Below, piece by piece: positions 26,405 through 26,788 of a stretch of 64,000 nucleotides of DNA. Positions within the stretch are counted from its first letter, which is position 1. Each line of letters opens with the position of its first letter. The DNA is taken from the NCBI RefSeq assembly GCF_053078305.1, contig NZ_CP166879.1; one strand, 5' to 3'. The position numbers and the translations under genes were made by a program. The notes beneath the pieces were generated by a model, which was not told the origin of the DNA, ran no database searches, and worked only from the letters and a program-made list of their open reading frames with translations.

Positions 26405-26480
26405 TGGAGCGGGAAACGAGACTCGAACTCGCGACCCCGACCTTGGCAAGGTCGTGCTCTACCAACTGAGCTATTCCCGC
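26405..26480 (-). tRNA. glyY: tRNA-Gly (GCC)
   Basis: Reverse complement reads GCGGGAATAGCTCAGTTGGTAGAGCACGACCTTGCCAAGGTCGGGGTCGCGAGTTCGAGTCTCGTTTCCCGCTCCA, the canonical E. coli tRNA-Gly(GCC). Confidence 0.97.
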
Positions 26481-26515
26481 TTGGGTGGTCTGTGCCTTAC
26501 AGCACTTTCAAATTT

Positions 26516-26591
26516 TGGAGCGGGAAACGAGACTCGAACTCGCGACCCCGACCTTGGCAAGGTCGTGCTCTACCAACTGAGCTATTCCCGC
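26516..26591 (-). tRNA. glyX: tRNA-Gly (GCC)
   Basis: Identical 76-nt tRNA-Gly copy, 35-nt spacer from the neighbouring copy. Confidence 0.97.
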
Positions 26592-26627
26592 TTGGGTGGT
26601 CTGTGCTTTGCAGCACTTTTCAAATTT

Positions 26628-26703
26628 TGGAGCGGGAAACGAGACTCGAACTCGCGACCCCGACCTTGGCAAGGTCGTGCTCTACCAACTGAGCTATTCC
26701 CGC
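26628..26703 (-). tRNA. glyV: tRNA-Gly (GCC)
   Basis: Identical 76-nt tRNA-Gly copy, promoter-proximal member of the triple array. Confidence 0.97.
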
Positions 26704-26760
26704 GTACTACTTAATTTTGCTTTCGTAATTTTCGCATTTCTGCGTCGTTACGGGAGGCGC

Positions 26761-26788
26761 ATTATACGAGAAATCTTTCCCTCTGCAA
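26761..26788 (-). promoter_or_regulatory. sigma-70 promoter of the glyVXY tRNA operon
   Basis: Minus strand reads TTGCAG - 16 nt - TATAAT followed by GC-rich discriminator gcgcc (stringent-type), about 50 nt upstream of glyV. Confidence 0.6.

What the first reader, a model, noticed from the sequence alone, without database searches (positions are those of the whole stretch)
26405..26788. Triple tandem tRNA-Gly(GCC) operon with near-consensus promoter
Three identical 76-nt tRNA-Gly genes separated by 35-36-nt spacers are driven by a TTGCAG-16-TATAAT promoter with a GC-rich discriminator. Tandem identical tRNAs are recombination-prone (copy-number change) and are frequent island integration targets; here the array appears intact and unoccupied.
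Basis: seen in the sequence. Interest (0 to 1): 0.2.

Follow-up and report, generated by a model that had tools for sequence, protein, structure and literature searches.

The report
E. coli glyVXY tRNA operon beside datA

Summary
Three identical 76-nt tRNA-Gly(GCC) genes lie on the minus strand at 26703..26628, 26591..26516 and 26480..26405. Their spacers are 36 and 35 nt, and TTGCAG-16 nt-TATAAT-GCGCCTCCC sits upstream.

The window is an E. coli chromosome, and this is the orn-glyVXY-yjeV-queG locus. From the -35 hexamer to queG it differs from K-12 MG1655 by one SNP. The promoter is exactly the 28 bp deleted as PglyV-X-Y by Kasho et al. 2024. It is "near-consensus" only at -10, because the -35 matches 3 of 6.

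Published work shows that read-through from this promoter past a leaky terminator controls IHF binding there.

Copy number does vary among 5,425 E. coli genomes. About 70% look like the window and about 30% carry an ERIC-like 121-nt insert in the first spacer. 2- and 4-copy arrays were each seen in single genomes and appear rare. Island integration is not supported, since the glyY-datA junction is intact in 5,418 of 5,425 genomes. In this same window pheU is occupied by an island.

The promoter and the array-datA linkage are conserved across Enterobacterales. Already known; low interest.

The parts
26796..26809 (-). A8T6 tract just upstream of -35, a candidate UP element (inferred)
   Evidence: Read from the sequence. 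K-12 has A8-C-T6 here, and the three window/K-12 differences all lie in or next to this tract. A/T-rich tracts occur at the same place in other genera. Function was not tested.
26761..26788 (-). PglyV-X-Y core promoter: -35 TTGCAG (26788..26783), 16-nt spacer, -10 TATAAT (26766..26761)
   Evidence: It is identical to K-12. The deltaPgly1_L/R primers of PMC10950094 delete exactly this 28-bp segment. The arrangement TTGC(A/G)N-16-TATAAT is conserved in 16 of 16 Enterobacterales genera sampled. The consensus scan did not call it because the -35 matches only 3 of 6.
26752..26760 (-). GC-rich discriminator GCGCCTCCC; the transcription start is probably at about 26753-26751
   Evidence: GCGC(N)(N)CCC is conserved across Enterobacterales. 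RT-qPCR amplicons that start at CGTATAATGCG gave much less RNA than amplicons that start at GTAACGACG (PMC10950094), which brackets the start site. The exact start is inferred.
26704..26751 (-). 5' leader of the precursor (about 48-50 nt), removed by RNase P
   Evidence: Sequence. A small leader hairpin is predicted at -8.4 kcal/mol. Processing by RNase P is general knowledge, not tested here.
26628..26703 (-). glyV, tRNA-Gly(GCC), the promoter-proximal copy
   Evidence: Identical to K-12 glyV.
26592..26627 (-). glyV-glyX spacer, 36 nt, with a 5-bp GUGCU/AGCAC hairpin
   Evidence: -7.2 kcal/mol. This is the spacer that carries a 121-nt ERIC-like insert, directly before glyX, in about 30% of E. 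coli genomes.
26516..26591 (-). glyX, tRNA-Gly(GCC)
   Evidence: The upstream glyX tRNA is required for efficient RNase E cleavage 3' of glyY (PMC9841416).
26481..26515 (-). glyX-glyY spacer, 35 nt; its single-stranded part is an RNase E recognition determinant
   Evidence: Annealing an oligonucleotide to this spacer blocks RNase E cleavage 3' of glyY (PMC4191395).
26405..26480 (-). glyY, tRNA-Gly(GCC), the last copy
26403..26404 (-). Major RNase E direct-entry cleavage site, 1 nt downstream of glyY
   Evidence: PMC4191395. I transferred the position by sequence identity to K-12.
26378..26386 (-). datA DnaA box 1 (ATATCCACA, one mismatch), overlapping the terminator's 5' arm
   Evidence: PMC10950094 states that TglyV-X-Y overlaps box 1, and the delter primers remove AATATCCACAGCGACGCGATGCGTTA.
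26346..26382 (-). TglyV-X-Y terminator/attenuator: imperfect hairpin 26382..26355 followed by UUUUUGUUG
   Evidence: Predicted fold of -14.3 kcal/mol. The consensus scan did not call it because the stem is bulged. It is described as an attenuator that allows considerable read-through (PMC10950094). TTGCTG at 26361..26356 is the sequence retained by the published deletion, which was designed to keep PyjeV; assigning it as the PyjeV -35 is my inference.
26323..26331 (-). datA DnaA box 7 (TTGTAAACA, 2 mismatches); assignment inferred
   Evidence: Sequence. [quoted passage not shown] The interval 26331..26149 is 183 bp, which equals the published minimal datA size (PMC5742627).
26311..26319 (-). 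datA DnaA box 2 (TTATCCACA, perfect consensus)
   Evidence: The subDnaAbox2 primers replace exactly this 9-mer.
26299..26313 (-). Short hairpin ACAGCC-UCA-GGCUGU overlapping the end of box 2, terminator-like
   Evidence: -10.5 kcal/mol for the region. Its role is unknown. DnaA bound at box 2 lowers read-through (PMC10950094).
26242..26254 (+). datA IHF-binding site core TATCAATAGGTTA (IBS)
   Evidence: The subIBS primer replaces TATCAA. One SNP relative to K-12 lies at 26240, 2 nt outside the core. An IHF-like core lies 76-79 nt after box 2 in 41 of 52 loci from other genera.
26149..26157 (-). datA DnaA box 3 (TTATTCACA)
   Evidence: It lies 162 nt after box 2, and a 158-164 nt spacing is conserved in 52 loci across Enterobacterales.
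26137..26145 (+). datA DnaA box 4 (TCATCCACA, inverted orientation); assignment inferred from position
   Evidence: Box 4 is described as stimulatory (PMC5742627).
26118..26171 (-). yjeV, an annotated 17-codon ORF that contains boxes 3 and 4 and overlaps the 3' end of queG
   Evidence: Annotation; sequence.

Best explanation
This is the E. coli glyV-glyX-glyY operon. A sigma-70 promoter of the stable-RNA type drives it. That promoter has a perfect -10, a 16-nt spacer, a weak -35 that keeps TTG, a GC-rich discriminator and an upstream A/T tract. It makes one precursor carrying three identical tRNA-Gly(GCC) units, which supply three of the four tRNA-Gly(GCC) genes of K-12-like strains (the fourth is glyW).

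The precursor is cut apart by RNase E. This includes a direct-entry cut 1 nt after glyY that depends on the single-stranded glyX-glyY spacer and on the neighbouring glyX tRNA. RNase P and 3' exonucleases then finish the ends.

Transcription is only partly stopped by an imperfect hairpin-plus-U terminator that overlaps DnaA box 1. The remaining polymerases run into datA, which lies between glyY and queG. According to published K-12 experiments, this read-through keeps IHF off datA before replication initiation, and bound IHF and DnaA in turn block the read-through afterwards. The operon therefore links tRNA transcription to the timing of DnaA-ATP hydrolysis.

Shown here: the sequence anatomy, identity to K-12, population structure and cross-genus conservation. 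Taken from the literature: promoter activity, RNase E sites, attenuation and the IHF effect. Inferred: the exact start site, the UP element, stringent control, and that all of this holds in this strain.
For: - tRNA calls; three identical copies and the spacer lengths.
- Identity to K-12 from -35 to queG, apart from one SNP outside the IHF core.
- Synteny orn-glyVXY-yjeV-queG.
- Primer-level agreement with the deletions and substitutions that define PglyV-X-Y, TglyV-X-Y, box 2 and the IBS, and with their reported phenotypes.
- RNase E data on this precursor.
- The precursor folds more stably than shuffled sequence, z = -5.3.
- Both DnaA boxes that match the strict consensus near the array lie in the datA interval; the whole 64-kb window has only 3.
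- Cross-genus conservation of the promoter.
- Cross-genus conservation of a box 2 / IHF / box 3 cluster at fixed spacing after the last tRNA. Enterobacteriaceae have 84 strict boxes downstream against 0 upstream. 52 loci have the 158-164 nt pair, and 41 of those 52 have an IHF-like core 76-79 nt after box 2.
Against: - No experiment was done on this strain.
- The A/T tract upstream of -35 differs from K-12 at three positions, and there is one SNP 2 nt from the IHF core. Either could change the quantities involved.
- The consensus promoter scan and the terminator scan did not call the promoter or TglyV-X-Y.
- The contribution of datA to initiation control is modest in K-12 (PMC5835720). The 2024 model also needs a further, unidentified factor.
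- Conserved linkage could reflect simple synteny rather than selection for coupling.
Confidence: 0.9

Rival explanations
1. It is a plain housekeeping tRNA operon whose only function is tRNA supply. Adjacency to datA is inherited gene order with no regulatory meaning in this strain.
For: Orn-Gly-array linkage exists without any DnaA-box cluster in Aeromonas, Tolumonas and Idiomarina. In Morganellaceae 0.4-1.1 kb separates the array from the datA-like cluster, so tight adjacency is not obligatory. datA deletion has mild phenotypes.
Against: In K-12, deleting PglyV-X-Y or inserting a terminator after glyY increases IHF binding at datA and moderately inhibits initiation (PMC10950094). The window matches K-12 at every base across all of these elements. 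The datA cluster always lies on the transcription-downstream side in the same orientation, in 52 loci.
Confidence: 0.08
2. The array is an integration hot spot for genomic islands that merely happens to be empty here.
For: tRNA genes are common island attachment sites in general. pheU in this very window carries an island that begins just after its 3' end, with the integrase gene about 200 nt downstream.
Against: The glyX-glyY-datA junction is contiguous in 5,418 of 5,425 E. coli genomes. The variant loci I inspected (L002-L005) show only an ERIC-like insert or a copy-number change, with no integrase. In the cross-genus loci, where both genes were found, orn and queG flank the array directly.
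Confidence: 0.02
3. The three copies are an assembly or duplication artefact of a single gene.
For: Identical repeats can be mis-assembled. 2- and 4-copy versions exist in databases.
Against: The two spacers differ from each other (36 vs 35 nt, with base differences). The same three-copy arrangement with the same spacers is seen in about 3,800 complete genomes including K-12.
Confidence: 0.01

Closest known systems
E. coli K-12 glyV-glyX-glyY operon (b4163-b4165, 94.7 min)
   Same: Same genes, order, spacers, promoter, leader and terminator, and the same flanking genes orn and queG. It matches K-12 at every base from -35 through glyY.
   Different: There are three base differences in the A/T tract upstream of -35. 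The window is given in the opposite orientation to the K-12 record.
datA locus / DDAH system (Kitagawa 1996; Kasho & Katayama 2013; Kasho et al. 2017, 2024)
   Same: Boxes 1, 7, 2, IBS, 3 and 4 are present with K-12 spacing. The span from box 7 to box 3 is 183 bp, as for the published minimal datA.
   Different: One SNP (window C, K-12 T at 26240) lies 2 nt outside the IHF core. IBS-region variation that leaves the consensus match unchanged is reported in 12 of 59 strains (PMC4585315).
rrn P1-type stable-RNA promoters (for example rrnB P1)
   Same: Perfect TATAAT, a 16-nt spacer, a GCGCC... discriminator and an upstream A/T-rich tract. The rrnB P1 comparison is from my own knowledge.
   Different: The -35 is TTGCAG rather than TTGTCA. 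Control by ppGpp/DksA and Fis was not tested here. PMC10950094 cites earlier work for Fis control of E. coli tRNA transcription generally, for reduced transcription of most tRNAs under stringent conditions, and for medium-dependent levels of this tRNA.
Other polycistronic tRNA precursors processed by RNase E direct entry (argX-hisR-leuT-proM, metT operon)
   Same: Cleavage next to a tRNA depends on a single-stranded spacer and on an adjacent tRNA unit.
   Different: Here all the units are identical copies of one tRNA species.
tRNA-gene island attachment sites (for example pheU, pheV, selC, leuX)
   Same: It is a tRNA gene with a 3' end facing intergenic DNA.
   Different: No integrase, no duplicated 3' end, and essentially never interrupted in 5,425 genomes. 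pheU in this window is the contrasting positive case.

Membership tests
Bacterial tRNA-Gly(GCC) gene | Cloverleaf recognised by a tRNA predictor and a covariance model above the curated threshold | tested here: met
   ARAGORN calls three genes. Rfam RF00005 scores 69.1 bits against a gathering score of 29, over the full model 1-71.
Bacterial tRNA-Gly(GCC) gene | Anticodon GCC at position 34-36 and an encoded 3' CCA | tested here: met
   Anticodon gcc at position 34. All copies end ...GCTCCA.
E. coli glyV-glyX-glyY operon | Sequence identity to the K-12 genes and spacers | tested here: met
   The alignment has no difference from -35 to the end of glyY.
E. coli glyV-glyX-glyY operon | Location between orn and queG | tested here: met
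   Annotation of the collinear genome and of K-12.
E. coli glyV-glyX-glyY operon | Transcription from PglyV-X-Y as one unit | not testable with these tools
   The sequence matches the segment deleted in PMC10950094. Activity in this strain was not measured.
Stable-RNA (rrn P1-like, stringently controlled) sigma-70 promoter | Consensus -10, sub-optimal 16-nt spacer, GC-rich discriminator | tested here: met
   TATAAT, 16 nt and GCGCCTCCC, conserved in 16 of 16 Enterobacterales genera sampled.
Stable-RNA (rrn P1-like, stringently controlled) sigma-70 promoter | Near-consensus -35 hexamer | tested here: not met
   TTGCAG matches TTGACA at 3 of 6 positions, and the scan did not call the site.
Stable-RNA (rrn P1-like, stringently controlled) sigma-70 promoter | Negative control by ppGpp/DksA and activation by Fis or an UP element | not testable with these tools
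   Only an A8T6 tract is visible. PMC10950094 cites earlier work for Fis control of E. coli tRNA transcription in general, and for higher glyV-X-Y tRNA levels in richer medium.
datA (datA-dependent DnaA-ATP hydrolysis locus) | DnaA boxes 2 and 3 in the same orientation, with the IHF site between them at the K-12 spacing | tested here: met
   Box 2 at 26319..26311, the IBS core at 26242-26254 and box 3 at 26157..26149. All are at the K-12 positions and match the mutagenesis primers.
datA (datA-dependent DnaA-ATP hydrolysis locus) | Low-affinity box 7 next to box 2 | tested here: inconclusive
   [quoted passage not shown] The primary paper (PMC5270471) was not available.
datA (datA-dependent DnaA-ATP hydrolysis locus) | IHF-dependent stimulation of DnaA-ATP hydrolysis | not testable with these tools
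   This is a biochemical activity, known for the K-12 sequence, which matches the window except for one SNP beside the IHF core.
Intrinsic (Rho-independent) terminator | GC-rich hairpin followed directly by a U tract | tested here: inconclusive
   A bulged hairpin at 26382..26355 plus UUUUUGUUG folds at -14.3 kcal/mol, but it fails the consensus scan. It is published as a leaky attenuator.
tRNA-gene attachment site occupied by a genomic island | Integrase gene and foreign DNA directly 3' of the tRNA | tested here: not met
   datA and queG follow glyY as in K-12. The junction is intact in 5,418 of 5,425 genomes.

The most novel reading that the evidence does not exclude
Natural variation in the array may tune how much transcription reaches datA, and so alter replication-initiation timing between lineages. 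The variants are the ERIC-like hairpin element in the first spacer of about 30% of E. coli (and in the Gly arrays of five other genera), and the 2-, 3- or 4-copy states. Selection to keep the promoter-array-datA unit contiguous could also explain why this tRNA array, unlike pheU, is almost never used for island integration. The linkage itself (conserved promoter, array, then box 2 / IHF / box 3 at fixed spacing) extends across Enterobacterales. I did not find that described in the held literature.
Probability: 0.15. Interest if true: 0.45.

Novelty: already known. Interest (0 to 1): 0.12.

Why it matters
As a tRNA operon it is textbook material and changes nothing. Its value lies in correct annotation. 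The roughly 270-nt 'empty' stretch between glyY and queG is not spare intergenic DNA or a free attachment site. It is datA, a replication-control element that the operon's own read-through transcription regulates.

The population and cross-genus numbers gathered here add modest context:
- About 70% of E. coli genomes have the window's arrangement and about 30% carry the ERIC-like insert.
- 2- and 4-copy arrays occur but appear rare.
- The glyY-datA junction is intact in more than 99.8% of genomes.
- The promoter and the datA spacing are conserved across Enterobacterales.

These figures could guide anyone who wants to test whether tRNA-operon architecture influences replication timing.

Tried and rejected
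- **Consensus scan.** It found neither the promoter nor TglyV-X-Y. I did not take that as evidence against them, because the -35 is 3 of 6 and the stem is bulged, and both elements are defined experimentally in K-12.
- **4-copy diagnostic query.** It did not separate 4-copy from 3-copy genomes, because 3-copy loci were joined from two pieces to 100% coverage. The estimate of about 16 genomes with more than 3 copies is only the difference 3,812 - 3,796. The three counts do not add up exactly: 3,796 + 1,637 exceeds 5,425 by 8.
- **Apparent loss of similarity at the 3' end of glyY in 30% of genomes.** It first looked like island insertion. It turned out to be an effect of how repeated pieces are joined when the array carries the ERIC-like insert or an extra copy.
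- **Primary datA anatomy paper (PMC5270471).** It is not held, so boxes 7 and 4 are assigned from reviews and spacing.
- **Literature searches.** I found nothing on ERIC elements in tRNA-Gly operons, and nothing explicit on datA conservation outside E. coli.
- **Exceptions.** The 7 genomes without an intact junction could not be listed, apart from OHT76-1.
- **Rfam.** It gave nothing in the locus besides the tRNAs.
- **ERIC-like insert.** It has no copy in the window.

Full report
**1. Observation**

ARAGORN finds three tRNA-Gly(GCC) genes at 26405-26480, 26516-26591 and 26628-26703, all on the minus strand. The Rfam tRNA model scores each at 69.1 bits against a gathering score of 29. The three 76-nt sequences are identical and end in an encoded CCA. 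The spacers are 36 nt (26592-26627) and 35 nt (26481-26515) and differ slightly from each other.

On the minus strand the motif TTGCAG (26788..26783), a 16-nt spacer, TATAAT (26766..26761) and GCGCCTCCC lies upstream of the first gene. So the description is accurate. The only caveats are that the operon reads right to left and that the -35 matches the consensus at 3 of 6 positions. That weak match is why the consensus scan did not report the site.

**2. Identity**

A 1-kb query around the array matches 5,425 of 5,426 complete E. coli genomes. The annotated features there are orn, three tRNA-Gly genes, a small hypothetical protein and queG. The window is collinear at about 99% with strain LHM10-1 from position 3 to 55951.

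Alignment with K-12 MG1655 shows no difference from the -35 hexamer to the end of glyY. There is a single SNP further on, at 26240, and three differences in the A/T tract upstream of -35. This is therefore the glyV-glyX-glyY operon, with glyV at 26703..26628.

**3.

The literature search led to Kasho et al. 2024 (PMC10950094). That paper places the DnaA-inactivating locus datA directly downstream of this operon.

In the window I find these elements:
- Box 1, ATATCCACA, at 26386..26378.
- A 2-mismatch box, TTGTAAACA, at 26331..26323.
- Box 2, TTATCCACA, at 26319..26311.
- An IHF core, TATCAATAGGTTA, at 26242-26254 on the plus strand.
- Box 3, TTATTCACA, at 26157..26149.
- An inverted box, TCATCCACA, at 26137-26145.

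The paper's primer table fixes several elements at base resolution:
- The promoter deletion removes exactly TTGCAG...TATAAT.
- The terminator deletion removes AATATCCACAGCGACGCGATGCGTTA, which is box 1 plus the 5' arm of the hairpin.
- The box 2 substitution replaces TTATCCACA.
- The IBS substitution replaces TATCAA.

[quoted passage not shown] The interval 26331..26149 is 183 bp, the published size of minimal datA (PMC5742627). Both facts support my box 7 assignment, but the primary paper was not available.

**4. Mechanism**

Established for K-12 and transferred here by sequence identity:
- **Promoter activity.** RNA levels rise sharply downstream of the promoter, and amplicons that include the -10 region give little signal. 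This places the start about 7-10 nt after TATAAT.
- **Processing.** RNase E cuts the precursor by direct entry 1 nt after glyY. This requires the single-stranded glyX-glyY spacer (PMC4191395) and the adjacent glyX tRNA (PMC9841416), so the tandem layout itself is a processing determinant.
- **Attenuation.** The terminator is a bulged hairpin plus a U tract, predicted at -14.3 kcal/mol. It behaves as an attenuator with considerable read-through.
- **Coupling to datA.** Read-through across the IHF site is high before initiation and falls afterwards. Deleting the promoter, or inserting a strong terminator after glyY, raises IHF occupancy and moderately inhibits initiation. IHF, DnaA at box 2 and the attenuator each limit read-through.

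Inferred by me: the A8T6 tract acts as an UP element, the promoter is under stringent control (from the rrn P1-like -10, spacer and discriminator), and the exact position of the start site.

**5. Copy number and integration in E. coli**

About 70% of genomes (3,796) are collinear with the window over the 1-kb query.

About 30% (1,637) match a variant whose first spacer is 157 nt. The extra 121 nt have these properties:
- They contain adjacent matches to the two ERIC primer sequences, 15 of 22 and 18 of 22.
- They fold into a long imperfect hairpin of -37 kcal/mol.
- They have no copy in the window.

A 4-copy array (AVS0935) and a 2-copy array (2009C-3378) exist. Arrays with more than three copies number roughly 16, a crude estimate from the difference. 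PMC4539685 also reports three or four copies. PMC8811037 reports a duplication and an upstream inversion at this glycine tRNA operon (named glyU-glyX-glyY in that paper) under ciprofloxacin stress.

The integration-target part is not. A query spanning glyX, glyY and 100 nt of datA is contiguous in 5,418 of 5,425 genomes, and none of the four variant loci inspected contains an island.

**6. Beyond E. coli**

A pattern scan of one genome per species returned 120 loci with tandem Gly(GCC) genes.

Typical copy numbers:

| Group | Typical copies |
|---|---|
| Enterobacterales | 3 |
| Acinetobacter | 2 |
| Aeromonas | up to 7 |

Strict DnaA boxes in the 450 nt downstream versus upstream of the array:

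| Group | Downstream | Upstream |
|---|---|---|
| Enterobacteriaceae | 84 | 0 |
| Erwiniaceae | 47 | 0 |
| Edwardsiella, Rahnella, Chimaeribacter | 6 | 0 |
| Aeromonadales | 0 | 0 |
| Moraxellaceae | 2 | 2 |

Fifty-two loci have a same-strand box pair 158-164 nt apart. In 41 of them an IHF-like core (at most one mismatch) lies 76-79 nt after the first box. Proteus and Providencia have the same cluster shifted by about 0.4 kb; in Photorhabdus thracensis and Proteus alimentorum only a box-1/box-2-spaced pair is seen, about 1.1 kb downstream.

The promoter TTGC(A/G)N-16-TATAAT-GCGCNNCCC is present in all 16 Enterobacterales genera sampled, and Aeromonas has TTGCAA-16-TATAAT-TCGGCTCCC. Orn lies upstream of the array even in Aeromonas, Tolumonas and Idiomarina, so the orn-array linkage is older than the array-datA linkage. 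I found no held paper that describes this cross-genus linkage, but that is weak evidence of novelty.

**7. Verdict**

The finding is real, correctly read at the sequence level, and ordinary. It is one of the best-characterised tRNA operons of E. coli. The one substantive correction is functional context: the downstream flank is datA, not free intergenic space, and this array is not a used integration site. Novelty: already known. Interest: low.

Noticed in passing
window 55876-64000: tRNA-Phe (pheU, 55876-55951, + strand) is occupied by a genomic island. Collinearity with the reference genome stops exactly at the 3' end of the tRNA. The following 8 kb encode a tyrosine integrase (56147..57217, -), a TraI-domain protein, a UvrD-like helicase, a YadA-like adhesin (60448-62124, +), a GNAT/DUF1778 pair and a dolP-like gene. 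Only 12 of 5,426 genomes share at least 80% of this stretch. The comparison genome LHM10-1 has only an integrase fragment at this position.
   Followed up: partly
window 41651-41697 (- strand): A guanidine-II (mini-ykkC) riboswitch at 50.4 bits, upstream of the SMR transporter gene sugE/gdx. This is the known arrangement.
   Followed up: no
L002 6190-6310 (E. coli WG5::PA8); also L003, L071, L094, L040, L089, L092, L101, L118: A 121-nt ERIC-like hairpin element sits inside the tRNA operon, in the glyV-glyX spacer, in about 30% of E. coli genomes (1,637). A closely similar element lies in spacer 1 or spacer 2 of the Gly arrays of Citrobacter youngae, Kluyvera, Silvania, Pluralibacter and Klebsiella oxytoca. 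It is always in the same orientation relative to the tRNA genes. Whether it is ancestral with repeated loss, or repeatedly inserted, is open. I found no paper on it.
   Followed up: partly
L004 5892-6302 (AVS0935) and L005 1804-1990 (2009C-3378): Natural 4-copy and 2-copy versions of the array. The 4-copy form repeats the 36-nt glyV-glyX-type spacer, as expected from unequal crossing-over.
   Followed up: partly
L006 (E. coli OHT76-1, NZ_CP135244.1): This complete genome gave no match to the orn, glyVXY, datA or queG parts of any query, only to glyW. Kasho et al. supplied tRNA-Gly from a plasmid in their glyVXY deletion strains to avoid lethality. A natural strain lacking the locus would therefore be surprising, and a mis-assembly is possible.
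   Followed up: no
window 26118-26171 (- strand): The annotated 17-codon ORF yjeV consists largely of datA DnaA boxes 3 and 4 and overlaps the last 18 nt of queG. Its conservation may reflect the DnaA boxes rather than a protein.
   Followed up: no
window 26240 and 26796-26811: These are the only differences from K-12 in the regulatory region. One is C instead of T, 2 nt from the IHF core. The other three make the upstream A/T tract an uninterrupted A8T6, where K-12 has A8-C-T6.
   Followed up: partly
L032, L038, L053, L056, L068, L099 (Aeromonas); L036 (Idiomarina): Aeromonas species carry 5-7 tandem tRNA-Gly(GCC) copies downstream of orn. They have a similar promoter but no DnaA-box cluster. 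The orn-array linkage therefore predates the datA linkage.
   Followed up: partly
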